Shown here: piece after piece, positions 58,560 to 64,000 of the stretch
Numbering within the stretch: position 1 is the first letter of the stretch
Layout: each line of letters starts with the position of its first letter
Assembly: GCF_009914755.1 (NCBI RefSeq)
Contig: NC_060926.1
Source of the DNA: the human T2T-CHM13v2.0 reference genome, Homo sapiens
Length of the DNA stretch: 64,000 nucleotides
Reading direction: 5' to 3' (one strand)
The notes under the pieces: generated by a model
The model's database searches: none
What the model was told of the DNA's origin: nothing
The model's input: only the letters and a program-made list of their open reading frames with translations
Made by a program: the position numbers and the translations under genes

Positions 58560-59000
58560 CAGACTGTTTACTCGCTCCCTAAGCAGCCATGCGCAGGCGC
58601 GAAACTCCTCCCCAGGCCAGACCCGGCCTGCGCATGCGTTCAAGTGAGCGCGCAGACGCTATTGGTAAGACTCGCGGGAAAAGAAAGGGTGAGCGCGGCT
58701 GGAAGCGCGCATGCGCTGTGGCTAATGCCGTAGGCTCTTTCAGGGCTGAGCCATCCTGCGTGTCTTGCGCTCGGTGGAAATGCCCAGCCGAGGGACGCGA
58801 CCAGAGGACAGCTCTGTGCTGATCCCCACCGACAATTCGACCCCACACAAGGAGGATCTAAGCAGCAAGGTGAGTGTGAGACGCGACGAAAAGGCTCCTG
58901 GACTCGGGACCGGGCGCCACTGGACCCTGAAGGTGGTCCGCAGCGGGCAGCGTGGGGCCTGCCTGGGCCTCGGCTTTGCCCTGCTACTTTGCTCTTTTTA
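58560..59000 (+). promoter_or_regulatory. CpG-island promoter / first exon of ASDURF-ASNSD1
   Basis: Only non-SVA CpG-dense stretch in the window. Three NRF1-like GCGCA(T/G)GCG sites (58590-58600, 58629-58638, 58705-58716), an inverted CCAAT (ATTGG, 58661), no obvious TATA box. Confidence 0.85.
58780..58869 (+). CDS. ASDURF: ASDURF coding exon 1 (30 codons)
   Basis: ATG at 58780 (G at -3) inside the CpG island; donor AAG|GTGAGT at 58870. Confidence 0.95.
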
Positions 59001-62000
59001 TTCATAGCACTTGACAGCCACAGTTAGTCCTTTTATTTTCTGAAAACAGTTGCGAAAAGGGAGATCTTGAAATTTGTCCCGAGACTGGACCCAGGTGACA
59101 GTGGGGCGGAGTTTTGGTTGGGTGTTTTCCTCCCTAGTCTTTTTAAACTTTTGGAAATACCGCCCACCCCAAATCTGTTCCATCAAAGATATTCTCCATC
59201 CAGTTAACCATGCCAGCAACCCGGGGTCCATCCTTGACCCCCATCATGGAAGCCTATCAGTTCTACCTTTGAAGCTCATTTCAAATATGTCCCTTTATCA
59301 CCGTGAACACTCTTACCACCCCAAATAAGCCACCGTCATCTGCTATCGGGACCCCTGCCCCCGGCAAGGCCTTCCTAAGCGGTCTCTCCTCATCCACCTG
59401 TTAGCTGCTGCTTCTCCGTTAACCAGAGCAATGGTCCTAAAACACGCATTGGGTTGTCACTCATACCAAACTGGGGGAGAGAGGAAGCCAATATAATATA
59501 AGCCTTAACTGCCATAAACAAACAACCTTTAAAGATAAATGGGGGTGGCGAGGGTTATAGCCCTTCAGGTATTACATGTCCTAGATTCTACTTTGGTTCT
59601 GTCCCAAACTTACAATGACATCTTGGGCAAGTCTCTTTAATCTTTCTGTATCAGTTACCTTCTTTGAAGTAAAGTGAAATGTACACCTGTCATTCCTAAA
59701 ATGGGAAAGCCCTGTATAAATGTTAAGTCTCAAAGAATGTTTACAAATTTGGCCTTGGAATTCAACCTCATTACTACAGCTCTGCCAACGGGGGAGACAG
59801 AAAGGTGCACATTCATGGGGATTGGGGGTGAATTTTCAAAAGACACACAGCCCATTCTGATTACCACCATAGCAAGCCACTTACGCATACTGGTGGTTAC
59901 AGATCCCTGAGGTGTGTGTGAGGTAGCACAAATATGATAAAAGCTGCTTTTAGAGGCTCTTGTGATACTATGTAATCAGTCATGTTCACAAAATAAATAG
60001 AGTTAAAAAGAAACTTAGTTTTCACTTAGTTGAGCCCTCCCCTACAAATAAATGAAGCCCAGGCCAGCATGGTGGCCCAGGCCTGTAGTCCCAGCTACTC
60101 GGAGGCTAAGGTGTGAGAATCGCCTGAGCCCGGGAAGATCAAAGCTGCAGTGAGCCGTGATCGCACCACTGCACTCCAGCCTGGGTAACAGAGCAAGACC
60201 CTGTTTCAAAAAAAAAAAAAAAAAAAAGCCCAGTTCAACAGTGCCAGCTCTATGCTAGTCATTGAGATAAAAAGAGGGAAAAATACCAAGATGGAACATG
60301 ATAGGTCTTACTGTCCCCAAATAGGGCATTGCTTGATTTGAATGTTTGACTGCAGCACTTAGTACATAAAATCATGAAAATATTGAAAAAAGTAACCCAC
60401 CCCTCATTCAATTTGCTTTTTTTTAAATCTAAATCACAACTTAATTTTCAATCTAAATCACAACTTAATTCCTTTTGGTGTATATCATATATATATATTT
60501 TTTTAATTATTTATTTATTTATTTTTTTGAGACGGAGTTTCACTCTTGTTGCCCAGGCTAGAGTGCAGTGGTGCAATCTTGGCTCACTGCAGCCTCCGCC
60601 TCCCGGGTTCAAGCAGTTCTCCTGCCTCAGCCTCCCGAATAGCTGGGATTACAGGCATGTGCCACTACGCTTGGCTAATTTTGTATTTTTAGTAGAGATG
60701 GGGTGTCTGCATGTTGGTTAGGCTGGTCTCGAACTCCCGACTTCAGGTGATCCGCCCGCCTTGGCCTCCCGAAGTGCTGGGATTACAGGCATGAGCCACC
60801 GCACCCGGCCTGGTGTATATCATATATTTTTAACAAAAGGTATAAACCTTGTTTAGTAACTGTAGTCCTTGGCATGATTGCTGGTTATGAACACGAAAAT
60901 CCCTGTCTGGTCTTAATGGGTTACCTAACATTTTGCAAGTCTAATCACTGTTTTTTCTCCTCCAGCTTTTCCTGAACTGTACCCCCACACAGAGACTCCT
61001 GTTGAAAATGATCTGTATATTCACAAACTGCCCGTTTGGAAAACCAGTACATCATAGCCCCTTATCCCATCTCTAATTTTAAAACAACCCCTTAAGGGAT
61101 TTTCATTGAGCATACTTTGAAAACATCTGACTTAAGGAGTTTTTCTTTATTTCAATAGATTAAAGAACAAAAAATTGTGGTGGATGAACTTTCTAACCTT
61201 AAGAAGAATAGGGTGAGTTATTATAGGAATTCTGAATAATATGTGGGAGGTTTATTTATGTTAACTATATATTAAAGTTATAAGAAGTATATATAAGATT
61301 TAATCATACTTTAATAAAATGTATAGTATTTCAGCATCTTTTAAAATTGCAAGTGTCTAGATTCTTTTTTTAAATGGATAGATCTCATAGCTGAAGATGT
61401 CTTTTTTCTATCATATGCCATTCACATTGCCTTTGCAACAAATGATACTAGTTGTATTTTGGTATCTTGGAGCTATAATCACTAATGATGTTTTATACCT
61501 GAATTTGATGTTTTCTTTTGATATAAATGAACTTTATATTGAGATGAGAAGAAACTTTTCTTTTAAATGAATGTGGATAATTATTGAACAAAAAAGGATA
61601 CATTGCTTCCCCTCCCTCCAAAAAATTTTTACATAGATTTTCCTAAATGTGTAACATGGTTATTTAATGCCATTTCCATTAATATGTTACAAACAAGTAA
61701 GCTACTGCTTTGTGTATGGTTATAGTGTCAAATTGCATTTTAACATTCAGGAAGAAATGAGTCTGAGCTCTTAAAAGCTTTGTAAAGATTATGTAATAAC
61801 TGGCTGGTTAGATATTTCTGATATTGTCACTTATGGAATATTAGAAGTTGAGGCACATACAAAAATTAGCCAGGCGTGTGCCTGTAATCCCAGCTACTCA
61901 GGAGGCCGAGGCACAAGAATCGCTTGAACCTGGGAGGCAGAGGTTGCAGTGAGCTGAGCACACCACTGCACTCCAGCCTAGGCTACAGAGCAGGACTCCT

Positions 62001-63357: not shown

Positions 63358-63378
63358 TCAACCTGATTTCACATAACA

Positions 63379-64000
63379 ATGTGTGGCATTTGTTGTTCTG
63401 TAAACTTTTCTGCTGAGCATTTCAGTCAAGATTTAAAAGAGGACTTACTATATAATCTTAAACAGCGGGGACCCAATAGTAGTAAACAATTGTTAAAGTC
63501 TGATGTTAACTACCAGTGTTTATTTTCTGCTCACGTCCTACACTTGAGGGGTGTTTTGACTACCCAGCCTGTGGAAGATGAAAGAGGCAATGTGTTTCTA
63601 TGGAATGGAGAAATTTTTAGTGGAATAAAGGTTGAAGCTGAAGAGAATGACACTCAAATTTTGTTTAATTATCTTTCCTCCTGTAAGAATGAATCTGAGA
63701 TTTTGTCACTCTTCTCAGAAGTACAAGGTCCCTGGTCATTTATATATTATCAAGCATCTAGTCATTATTTATGGTTTGGTAGGGATTTTTTTGGTCGCCG
63801 TAGCTTGCTTTGGCATTTTAGTAATTTGGGCAAGAGTTTCTGCCTCTCTTCAGTTGGCACCCAAACATCTGGATTGGCAAATCAGTGGCAAGAAGTTCCA
63901 GCATCTGGACTTTTCAGAATTGATCTTAAGTCTACTGTCATTTCCAGATGCATTATTTTACAACTGTATCCTTGGAAATATATTTCTAGGGAGAATATTA
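63379..64000 (+). CDS. ASNSD1: Asparagine synthetase domain-containing protein 1, N-terminal 207 codons (3'-partial); class II glutamine amidotransferase (Ntn) domain
   Basis: Open from ATG 63379 (A at -3) to the window end: [35 protein letters not shown]...HVLHLRG...QP...FLWNGEIF...QGPWSFIYY...[11 protein letters not shown]. Carries the Met-Cys-Gly-Ile start, RGP, NGEI and RDxxG motifs of asparagine synthetase B GATase domains. Confidence 0.96.

What the first reader, a model, noticed from the sequence alone, without database searches (positions are those of the whole stretch)
58780..64000. Bicistronic mRNA: a spliced 96-aa prefoldin-like microprotein hidden in the '5' UTR' of ASNSD1
Seen: exons 1-3 and the first 71 nt of exon 4 splice into one open 96-codon frame. 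Its TAG (63355-57) lies 21 nt upstream of the ASNSD1 ATG (63379) in the same exon. The ORF track shows only an unspliced exon-1 read-through, so the protein is invisible without splicing. The helix / short aromatic hairpin (KVYRQ..NIFF) / helix layout is that of a beta-type prefoldin subunit. Established: ASDURF is reported as a subunit of the prefoldin-like module of the PAQosome (R2TP/PFDL) co-chaperone. It is therefore a known but rare arrangement: two unrelated functional proteins from one eukaryotic mRNA.
Basis: partly seen in the sequence, partly recalled or inferred. Interest (0 to 1): 0.9.

Follow-up and report, generated by a model that had tools for sequence, protein, structure and literature searches.

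The report
Known ASDURF microprotein upstream of ASNSD1
This is the already annotated human ASDURF gene, a 96-residue prefoldin-like chaperone subunit encoded by four spliced exons just ahead of ASNSD1 on the same messenger RNA, so the finding is correct but not new.

Summary
Four GT-AG exons (58780-58869, 61159-61212, 62636-62711, 63287-63357) join into 96 codons plus TAG. The ASNSD1 ATG (63379) follows 21 nt later in the same exon. All four exons match Pfam PF21975 (ASNSD1-SEP) colinearly, at one locus in the genome.

A profile search gave 473 relatives (120 listed: mammals, birds, a gecko). Exons 2-3 are 96-98% identical to human in 40 orthologs of 96 residues.

Prefoldin_2 was the second-best family in 17 of 17 orthologs, always below Pfam's cut-off.

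Papers read in passages report:
- mass-spectrometry detection;
- knockout rescue that needs the start codon;
- co-purification with the prefoldin-like/PAQosome module;
- positive PhyloCSF for both ORFs;
- 154 of 155 long reads spanning both ORFs.

The gene is in RefSeq, UniProt and Pfam, so it is already known.

Side observations:
- an internal poly(A) signal fits RefSeq's short ASDURF-only transcript;
- the stop-to-ATG gap is 12-22 nt in 11 vertebrates, read by eye;
- I found no paper on how ASNSD1 is translated behind five upstream AUGs.

The parts
58707..58716 (.). GCGCATGCGC palindrome directly 5' of the annotated transcription start (58718), inside a CpG-rich promoter
   Evidence: found once in the 64-kb window; 0 of 100 shuffles had a match. 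CpG observed/expected 0.84-0.91 around it. That this is an NRF1-type motif is recalled, not tested.
58718..58869 (+). Exon 1 (5' leader plus ASDURF codons 1-30), shared by the ASDURF and ASNSD1 transcripts
   Evidence: Hub annotation; donor GT. PF21975 positions 1-30, E 1.8e-16.
58725..58733 (+). Two-codon mini-uORF (ATG CCG TAG) ahead of the ASDURF start, in a weak context
   Evidence: sequence.
58780..58869 (+). ASDURF coding part 1 (residues 1-30). It is Pro/Gly-rich and the least conserved part.
   Evidence: mean identity to human 66% in 40 orthologs of 96 residues; all 5 Pro/Gly lie in residues 1-22.
61159..61212 (+). ASDURF exon 2 (residues 31-48; N-terminal helix segment, inferred)
   Evidence: PF21975 positions 27-59, E 1.0e-4; 97.6% identity.
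62636..62711 (+). ASDURF exon 3 (residues 49-73 plus the first base of codon 74). It holds the [13 protein letters not shown] hairpin candidate.
   Evidence: PF21975 positions 49-73, E 6e-13; 96.2% identity; 3 of the 4 aromatic residues lie in 49-63.
62682..62711 (+). Alternative AG acceptor inside exon 3. It shifts the frame and gives a 63-codon product (with exon 2) or a 45-residue product (without exon 2).
   Evidence: Hub annotation ('exons of other transcripts'). AG acceptor, 63 codons, stop at 63302-63304. P0001, 45 aa. NM_001353494.2 seen in a supplement.
63287..63357 (+). ASDURF coding part 4 (last two bases of codon 74, residues 75-96, TAG). C-terminal helix, inferred.
   Evidence: PF21975 positions 75-96, E 5e-9. 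The published mass-spectrometry peptide maps to residues 82-91.
63358..63378 (+). 21-nt spacer between the ASDURF stop and the ASNSD1 ATG, with an in-frame TGA
   Evidence: No unusual RNA fold (z = 0.35).
63379..64000 (+). Start of the ASNSD1 coding sequence (MCG..., glutamine amidotransferase domain). It runs off the window.
   Evidence: GATase_7, E 5.1e-6, 26.9 bits against a cut-off of 25; open to the window end.
63624..63647 (+). AATAAA (63624-63629) and the annotated 3' end of the short ASDURF transcript NM_001353493.2 (63647), inside ASNSD1 codon 90. T-rich TTTTGTTT follows at 63659-63666.
   Evidence: sequence; hexamer position. Hub annotation gives the transcript end; supplement lists the transcript as 643 nt, which equals the sum of the four exons.

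Best explanation
This is the human ASDURF/ASNSD1 locus. One CpG-island promoter drives a pre-mRNA whose first four exons splice into a 96-codon ORF. That ORF ends 21 nt before the ASNSD1 start codon, inside exon 4.

Scanning ribosomes meet the ASDURF AUG first (G at -3, C at +4) and mostly translate it. The product has a disordered N-terminus (exon 1), then helix, single beta-hairpin, helix (exons 2-4). It acts as a beta-type subunit of the prefoldin-like hexamer (URI1, UXT, PDRG1, PFDN2, PFDN6, ASDURF) of the PAQosome co-chaperone.

A minority of ribosomes reach the ASNSD1 AUG, by leaky scanning and/or reinitiation, and make the unrelated amidotransferase-type enzyme.

What is shown here:
- the ORF and its splicing;
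- family membership;
- that it is single-copy;
- protein-level conservation;
- the arrangement with ASNSD1.

What is taken from papers:
- translation;
- complex membership;
- essentiality;
- both ORFs on one molecule.

What is inferred:
- the fold;
- the route by which ribosomes reach ASNSD1.
For: ORF and splicing:
- 291 nt, 96 codons, GT-AG at all three introns, and the ASNSD1 ATG 21 nt after the TAG.

Family:
- PF21975 matches exons 1, 3 and 4.
- In the whole genome all four exons match colinearly: profile positions 1-32, 27-59, 48-74 and 73-96. The only other match has E 8.6 and three stops.
- There is no second copy of the first 714 bases of exon 4 in the genome.
- The downstream ORF matches GATase_7.

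Conservation:
- 473 relatives at E <= 1e-3 among 1702 candidates; 120 were listed.
- 32 aligned amniote orthologs have 40 invariant columns.
- Identity to human per exon is 66, 98, 96 and 85% in 40 orthologs of 96 residues.
- By eye, hawk against human over codons 31-96: 38 codons differ, 25 of them synonymous only.

Prefoldin link:
- Prefoldin_2 is the second-best family in 17 of 17 orthologs, E 3.5e-6 to 3.3e-3, covering profile positions about 20-90 of 106.
- 11 of the 120 listed relatives carry a precomputed PF01920 label.
- All Pro/Gly lie in residues 1-22, and 3 of the 4 aromatic residues lie in 49-63.

Papers (passages only, unless a section or supplement is named):
- Knockout rescued by the wild-type cDNA but not by a start-site mutant; co-IP with prefoldin-like proteins (PMC10187264).
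- AP-MS and co-elution with PFDL/PAQosome. Predicted structure aligns to beta-prefoldins at mean TM 0.563, against 0.252 for controls (PMC11009110).
- PhyloCSF 18.1 and 30.9, Ribo-seq score 537 and 63, and long reads 154/155 (PMC13303939, Dataset EV1).
- Mutating the uORF AUG raises a downstream reporter 2.27-fold and removes the peptide band (PMC8894207).
- Mass-spectrometry peptide [10 protein letters not shown] (PMC11781309) maps to residues 82-91.
Against: - Every Prefoldin_2 hit I computed is below Pfam's cut-off: 17.8-27.4 bits against 27.6.
- The ortholog profile found no chain in the PDB at E <= 10. Neither did exons 1 and 3 alone.
- hhalign of the ortholog profile against three Prefoldin_2-matching exon pieces from this genome gave probabilities of 6.0, 0.8 and 0.6%.
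- A genome scan with PF01920 did not pick up this locus among its 8 hits.
- No structure could be predicted here.
- A 2021 review still called complex membership unconfirmed (PMC8567396).
- RefSeq's short transcript ends at an internal AATAAA. ASDURF need not come only from the bicistronic mRNA.
- Five AUGs precede the ASNSD1 AUG. None of the papers I read shows how ASNSD1 is translated.
Confidence: 0.95

Rival explanations
1. The upstream ORF is only a regulatory uORF. Its translation throttles ASNSD1, and the peptide itself has no function.
For: Ablating its AUG raises a downstream reporter 2.27-fold (PMC8894207), so it does repress ASNSD1. A 2025 preprint argues that for most essential uORFs the act of translation matters rather than the product (10.1101/2025.07.07.663426).
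Against: - That same preprint singles out ASDURF as the exception.
- The residues are conserved, not just the open frame: exons 2-3 are 96-98% identical in 40 orthologs, and 25 of 38 differing hawk-human codons are synonymous (by eye).
- The cDNA rescues the knockout in trans only with an intact AUG.
- The peptide co-purifies with the prefoldin-like complex.
- Arabidopsis has a stand-alone ortholog gene.
Confidence: 0.02
2. The locus is monocistronic in practice. ASDURF comes mainly from the short 643-nt mRNA that ends at the internal poly(A) site (63647). ASNSD1 comes from the long mRNA, on which the ASDURF ORF is mostly bypassed.
For: AATAAA at 63624-63629 lies 18 nt before the annotated end of NM_001353493.2, with a T-rich stretch after it. 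RefSeq lists a comparable 641-nt asdurf mRNA in zebrafish (supplement).
Against: - 154 of 155 long reads assigned to this transcript span both ORFs (PMC13303939, Dataset EV1).
- The reporter result shows that the ASDURF AUG is used within the ASNSD1 leader.
- AWTAAA hexamers are no rarer than chance in this AT-rich exon: 13 found against 14.75 expected.
- The RefSeq short models may follow a curation convention. I cannot check that here.
Confidence: 0.08
3. ASDURF and ASNSD1 are, or also are, made as one fusion protein, by stop-codon read-through or by splicing.
For: - The two ORFs are in the same frame.
- Gene models P0006 and P0007 join ASDURF residues 1-73 to ASNSD1 from codon 347 or 356, through AG acceptors inside exon 4.
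- 15 of 27 long relatives carry both PF21975 and ASNSD1 domains.
Against: - Two in-frame stops (TAG, TGA) separate the ORFs.
- The frame relation is not kept in other vertebrates: gaps of 12, 17, 20 and 22 nt (by eye).
- The fused records are automatic gene predictions. Their break points fall at the exon 2/3 or exon 3/4 boundary, as expected of model merging or exon skipping.
- None of the papers I read reports a fusion protein.
Confidence: 0.03

Closest known systems
[quoted passage not shown]
   Same: It is this gene. The coordinates equal the RefSeq coding parts. All four exons match PF21975 colinearly. It is 93 of 96 residues identical to the Sapajus apella ortholog.
   Different: Nothing of substance. 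The CHM13 window differs from the RefSeq mRNA shown in a supplement at two 5'UTR bases (58738 and 58757, by eye).
Canonical beta-class prefoldin subunits (PFDN1, 2, 4, 6; Pfam Prefoldin_2 PF01920) and PDRG1
   Same: - The layout is two heptad-patterned helical segments around a short aromatic hairpin.
- Prefoldin_2 is the second-best Pfam family in 17 of 17 orthologs, over profile positions about 20-90.
- Papers place it as a beta subunit, in the position of PFDN1.
   Different: - It is shorter: about 73 structured residues against a 106-position domain.
- All scores are below the curated cut-off.
- There is no hit to solved prefoldin chains.
- It is encoded as an upstream ORF rather than as its own gene.
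Other human bicistronic pairs: MIURF-MIEF1, PYURF-PIGY, STREMI-SLC35A4
   Same: A conserved upstream microprotein ORF and an unrelated main ORF sit on one mRNA. All were retrieved together by the long-read, Ribo-seq and PhyloCSF pipeline of PMC13303939.
   Different: The ASDURF ORF is spliced from four exons and ends only 21 nt before the main AUG. In Dataset EV1 its Ribo-seq score exceeds that of the main ORF 8.5-fold (537 against 63), whereas MIEF1's two ORFs score about equally.
Arabidopsis At1g49245 (plant ASDURF ortholog)
   Same: It is reported as a beta-type prefoldin-like protein that co-purifies with URI, UXT, PDRG1, PFD2 and PFD6 (preprint 10.1101/2023.12.13.571423; PMC10893143).
   Different: It has its own gene identifier rather than being an upstream ORF of an ASNSD1 homolog. 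This suggests the vertebrate linkage arose secondarily (inference).

Membership tests
ASDURF / Pfam PF21975 (ASNSD1-SEP) | Full-length, colinear match to the 96-position family profile above the curated cut-off | tested here: met
   exons 1, 3 and 4 score 60.5, 49.2 and 36.6 bits (cut-off 27) at profile positions 1-30, 49-73 and 75-96; all four exons score above the cut-off, in order, at one locus.
ASDURF / Pfam PF21975 (ASNSD1-SEP) | Lies upstream of, and on the same strand and transcript as, the ASNSD1 coding sequence | tested here: met
   the stop and the ASNSD1 ATG are 21 nt apart in one exon; the downstream ORF matches GATase_7. Hub annotation: exons 1-3 are shared; 15 of 27 long relatives join PF21975 to ASNSD1 domains, in species from an electric ray to mammals.
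ASDURF / Pfam PF21975 (ASNSD1-SEP) | Orthology to named ASDURF proteins of other vertebrates | tested here: met
   93 of 96 residues identical to P0008 (Sapajus apella ASDURF); 473 relatives, the listed ones named ASDURF by their sources.
Beta-class prefoldin (Pfam Prefoldin_2, PF01920) | Significant sequence match to the Prefoldin_2 profile | tested here: inconclusive
   - 17 of 17 orthologs hit it as the second-best family (E 3.5e-6 to 3.3e-3), all below the 27.6-bit cut-off.
- 11 of 120 listed relatives carry a precomputed PF01920 label.
- the human exon pieces alone gave no PF01920 hit at E <= 1.
- hhalign against three prefoldin exon pieces gave 6.0, 0.8 and 0.6%.
Beta-class prefoldin (Pfam Prefoldin_2, PF01920) | Fold: two long helices forming a coiled coil, joined by one beta-hairpin | not testable with these tools
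The spliced human protein also cannot be handed to it. Indirect support: composition by segment and a published AlphaFold/US-align comparison with mean TM 0.563 to beta-prefoldins (PMC11009110). No solved structure exists by sequence search.
Beta-class prefoldin (Pfam Prefoldin_2, PF01920) | Assembles into an alpha2-beta4 hexamer (here with URI1, UXT, PDRG1, PFDN2, PFDN6) | not testable with these tools
   Literature only: AP-MS, DIP-MS and co-IP. A 2021 review called it unconfirmed. No complex prediction was run, because the human partner proteins are spliced and cannot be supplied.
Bicistronic eukaryotic mRNA with two functional, non-overlapping ORFs | Both complete ORFs present on one mature transcript | tested here: met
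   Joining the annotated exons of NM_019048.4 gives both ORFs in one sequence. Independent support: 154 of 155 long reads (PMC13303939, Dataset EV1). Caveat: a short ASDURF-only transcript is also annotated.
Bicistronic eukaryotic mRNA with two functional, non-overlapping ORFs | Both ORFs translated | not testable with these tools
   Literature only: Ribo-seq scores 537 and 63, and RiboCode calls for both ORFs; mass-spectrometry peptide; HA-tagged peptide lost on AUG mutation.
Bicistronic eukaryotic mRNA with two functional, non-overlapping ORFs | Both ORFs under purifying selection as proteins | tested here: met
   For ASDURF at the protein level. By-eye codon comparison with hawk: 25 synonymous-only codons against 13 residue-changing ones. 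PhyloCSF is positive for both ORFs in Dataset EV1.

The most novel reading that the evidence does not exclude
The very short gap between the ASDURF stop and the ASNSD1 start is itself under selection. It measures 21 nt in human and 12-22 nt in the 11 vertebrates I could read by eye, from zebrafish to mammals, and the frame relation is not kept. The reason would be that ASNSD1 is translated mainly by ribosomes that have just terminated on the 96-codon ASDURF ORF (termination-coupled reinitiation) rather than by leaky scanning past five upstream AUGs. ASNSD1 output would then be tied to ASDURF translation. This would be an unusual case of efficient reinitiation after a long ORF in a cellular mRNA.
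Probability: 0.15. Interest if true: 0.5.

Novelty: already known. Interest (0 to 1): 0.1.

Why it matters
ASDURF is a well-documented case of a conserved, essential protein hidden in an annotated 5' UTR. It shows that one human mRNA can carry two unrelated functional ORFs, and it matters for how knockouts and RNAi of 'ASNSD1' are read. This is established work: RefSeq, Pfam, Cloutier 2020, Hofman 2023/2024 and Guo 2026. The finding therefore adds no new biology.

What remains open is modest. It is not known how ribosomes reach the ASNSD1 AUG, why the gap stays so short, or how much the internal poly(A) isoform contributes.

Tried and rejected
- **Retrocopy test.** A processed copy elsewhere in the genome would have been independent proof of the spliced bicistronic mRNA. 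The first 714 bases of exon 4 and the PF21975 profile each found only this locus, so the test was not possible.
- **Solved structures.** Exons 1 and 3 and the 32-ortholog profile found nothing in the PDB at E <= 10.
- **Profile comparison.** I compared the ortholog profile with three Prefoldin_2-matching exon pieces from this genome (contigs C1, C18, C6). From recalled locations these are probably PFDN2, a PFDN4-like copy and PFDN6. Probabilities were 6.0, 0.8 and 0.6%, which is uninformative.
- **ESM Atlas.** It gave the protein's own clusters, plus a plant 'Prefoldin subunit 1 family' cluster at score 0.80, which is a lead only.
- **Representative search with the 30-residue exon 1 piece.** It returned only 4 hits: a 45-residue splice isoform, two intron read-through models and one long protein of 39% identity that I did not examine. 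No full-length ortholog came back.
- **Exact human protein.** None of the 128 proteins held was identical to the human 96-residue product.
- **RNA features.** There was no Rfam match in 57500-64000. The spacer and exon 1 fold no better than shuffles (z = 0.35 and -1.0).
- **Complex prediction.** Not run. The human partners are spliced genes that cannot be supplied, and the pair is already documented.
- **Species-name phrase search in the supplements.** Found nothing.
- **Mouse Asnsd1 knockout papers.** The passages I read do not say which exons were removed, so they do not separate the two proteins.

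
Full report
**Observation**

A script joined the four annotated coding parts from the window file: 58780-58869, 61159-61212, 62636-62711 and 63287-63357.
- The result is 291 nt: an ATG, 96 codons and a single terminal TAG at 63355-63357.
- All three donors are GT and all three acceptors are AG. Exon phases are 0, 0 and 1.
- The ASNSD1 ATG is at 63379, 21 nt after the TAG, in the same exon.
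- The quoted junction (EDLSSK | IKEQK) and the KVYRQ...NIFF stretch are present.
- A mechanical ORF list shows only the unspliced read-through of exon 1 (58765-59007; 75 codons from the ATG). It shows nothing over exons 2-4.
- The spliced leader is open for 106 codons in this frame. The other two frames hold 6 and 9 stops.

**Identity**

Pfam has a dedicated family, PF21975 (ASNSD1-SEP, 96 positions).
- Translated alone, exons 1, 3 and 4 match profile positions 1-30, 49-73 and 75-96, with E 1.8e-16, 6e-13 and 5e-9.
- Scanning the whole 3.1-Gb assembly with that family found all four exons in order at this locus: positions 1-32, 27-59, 48-74 and 73-96.
- The only other match was a chance-level one: E 8.6, three stops.
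- The first 714 bases of exon 4 occur once in the genome. The gene is therefore single-copy, with no retrocopy.
- The downstream ORF matches the glutamine amidotransferase domain GATase_7 (26.9 bits, cut-off 25). It is unrelated to the upstream protein.

**Conservation**

A search seeded with a 45-residue isoform that an earlier search had returned led to named ASDURF orthologs.
- A profile of seven orthologs found 473 relatives at E <= 1e-3 among 1702 candidates. The 120 listed are placentals, marsupials, birds and a gecko, nearly all named ASDURF by their sources.
- Among 40 orthologs of exactly 96 residues, mean identity to the human product is 66% for exon 1, 98% for exon 2, 96% for exon 3 and 85% for exon 4. 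The Sapajus protein is identical at 93 of 96 residues.
- In 32 aligned amniote orthologs, 40 columns are invariant.
- No vertebrate DNA was available to the tools, so I ran no formal dN/dS.
- By eye, a hawk ASDURF mRNA shown in a supplement of PMC13303939 differs from human at 38 of codons 31-96. Of these, 25 are synonymous only and 13 change the residue.
- The same paper's Dataset EV1 gives PhyloCSF 18.1 for the ASDURF ORF and 30.9 for ASNSD1.

**Prefoldin relationship**

This is the least directly tested part.

For:
- Prefoldin_2 (PF01920) is the second-best Pfam family in 17 of 17 orthologs scanned. It covers residues about 24-95 against profile positions about 20-90 of 106, with E 3.5e-6 to 3.3e-3.
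- 11 of the 120 listed relatives carry a precomputed PF01920 label.
- All five Pro/Gly residues lie in positions 1-22.
- Segments 24-48 and 64-96 are charged and free of proline.
- The 15-residue middle segment holds three of the four aromatic residues.

Against or uninformative:
- Every PF01920 score is below the 27.6-bit cut-off.
- The ortholog profile reached no PDB chain.
- hhalign against three prefoldin exon pieces of this genome gave 6.0, 0.8 and 0.6%.
- A PF01920 scan of the genome did not pick up this locus.

The fold therefore rests on the literature. PMC11009110 (passages) reports a mean TM-score of 0.563 between the predicted ASDURF structure and beta-prefoldins, against 0.252 for controls.

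**Function, from papers**

All were read as passages unless a section or supplement is named.
- Cloutier 2020, the original report, is not held. I saw it only as a citation.
- PMC9406135 lists ASDURF among the six subunits of the unconventional prefoldin complex of the PAQosome.
- PMC11009110 finds that it co-elutes and co-purifies only with PFDL and PAQosome baits.
[quoted passage not shown] - A 2025 preprint finds the uORF essential in HAP1 cells, while mutations in the ASNSD1 coding sequence have a much weaker effect.
- PMC11781309 reports the peptide [10 protein letters not shown]. This maps to residues 82-91, encoded in exon 4.
- A 2021 review still treated complex membership as unconfirmed.
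- Arabidopsis At1g49245 is reported as a stand-alone ortholog that co-purifies with the plant complex.

**One mRNA or two**
- Dataset EV1 of PMC13303939 records 154 of 155 long reads spanning both ORFs of NM_019048.4. It gives Ribo-seq scores of 537 (ASDURF) and 63 (ASNSD1), and names ASDURF-ASNSD1 among 14 high-confidence human bicistronic transcripts.
- RefSeq also lists a 643-nt ASDURF-only transcript ending at 63647. The window has AATAAA at 63624-63629, 18 nt before that end, and TTTTGTTT at 63659-63666.
- That is a plausible internal poly(A) site inside ASNSD1 codon 90. Its use was not measured here, and such hexamers are no rarer than chance in this exon (13 found, 14.75 expected).

**How ASNSD1 is reached**

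Five AUGs precede the ASNSD1 AUG on the spliced leader:

| Position | Context | ORF it opens |
|---|---|---|
| 58725 | weak | 2 codons |
| 58780 | G at -3, C at +4 | ASDURF |
| 61184 | weak | out of frame, 40 codons |
| 62693 | as ASDURF | in frame, 29 codons |
| 63296 | weak | 2 codons |

- Mutating the ASDURF AUG raised a downstream reporter 2.27-fold (PMC8894207). Roughly 44% of the flow therefore survives the upstream ORF.
- Whether this is by leaky scanning or by reinitiation was not addressed in any paper my searches found.
- By eye, the gap between the ASDURF stop and the ASNSD1 ATG is 21 nt in human, cow and dog; 22 in turtle, hawk and chicken; 20 in duck, swan and seahorse; 17 in toad; and 12 in zebrafish.
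- The gap is always short, but the frame relation is not kept.
- This is the basis of the novel case. It rests on a small sample counted by hand.

**Linkage through evolution**

Among 27 longer relatives, 15 are gene models joining PF21975 to ASNSD1 domains.
- They come from hamster, sheep, birds, an anole, frogs, teleosts, a paddlefish and an electric ray.
- Their break points fall at the exon 2/3 or exon 3/4 boundary, or within exon 4.
- I read these as merged or exon-skipping predictions. They show that the ASDURF exons lie upstream of ASNSD1 on the same strand across jawed vertebrates. They are not evidence for real fusion proteins.
- A tick model instead carries the ASDURF-like tail behind a PHD/zf-CXXC protein.
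- PMC13303939 (section 13, read whole) states that for most human bicistronic pairs both proteins predate the linkage. Its Fig. 7D, which may show this pair, is not held.

**Verdict**

The object is the annotated, published ASDURF gene, so it is already known and of low interest as a discovery. The residual open points are the reinitiation question, the conserved short gap and the usage of the internal poly(A) site.

Noticed in passing
window 63624-63666: AATAAA at 63624-63629 lies 18 nt before the annotated 3' end (63647) of the short ASDURF transcript. TTTTGTTT follows at 63659-63666. This looks like an internal poly(A) site within ASNSD1 codon 90, which would give an ASDURF-only mRNA of 643 nt.
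   Followed up: partly
window 63358-63378 and ortholog mRNAs in supplements of PMC13303939: The gap between the ASDURF stop and the ASNSD1 ATG is short in all 11 vertebrates read by eye: 12 nt in zebrafish, 17 in toad, and 20-22 in birds, turtle, seahorse and mammals. The frame relation varies. In a sloth record the TAG reads CAG, and the frame runs three codons further to a TAA.
   Followed up: partly
window 58707-58716: A GCGCATGCGC palindrome sits directly 5' of the annotated start site. It is unique in the window, and 0 of 100 shuffles had a match. By eye it also appears near the 5' ends of the gorilla, horse and duck mRNAs in the supplement. The name 'NRF1-type motif' is recalled, not tested.
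   Followed up: partly
window 58725-58733: A two-codon uORF (ATG CCG TAG) in a weak context precedes the ASDURF start. If transcripts start a few bases further 5', the ATG inside the palindrome (58711) would be a further upstream AUG. That would fit the label 'AUG.3' used for the ASDURF start in PMC8894207.
   Followed up: no
L001, equivalent to window positions about 64415 and 64442 (beyond the window end): Two predicted proteins join ASDURF residues 1-73 in frame to ASNSD1 from codon 347 or 356, through AG acceptors inside exon 4. They are P0006 (unnamed source) and P0007 (a chimpanzee 'ASNSD1 isoform 7, partial'). The human sequence has both acceptors. There is no evidence that such proteins are made.
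   Followed up: partly
window 62682 and 61159-61212: Minor splice forms:
- The acceptor at 62682 shifts the frame, giving a 63-codon form (NM_001353494.2) or, with exon 2 skipped, a 45-residue form (P0001).
- Skipping exon 2 alone removes 18 residues in frame, giving a 78-residue form (NM_001353497.2; P0106 in Aotus).
Each lacks part of the conserved helices or the hairpin.
   Followed up: partly
P0155 (tick Rhipicephalus appendiculatus gene model), residues 494-554: An ASDURF-like tail with the conserved VYKQQPNSNIFF hairpin motif (PF21975, E 1.5e-7) is joined to a PHD/zf-CXXC/CpG_bind_C protein, not to ASNSD1. This suggests that the arthropod homolog sits next to a different gene.
   Followed up: no
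window 58738 and 58757: The CHM13 window has T where the RefSeq mRNA shown in the supplement, and the gorilla mRNA, have C. Both positions are in the 5' leader upstream of the ASDURF ATG. Read by eye.
   Followed up: no
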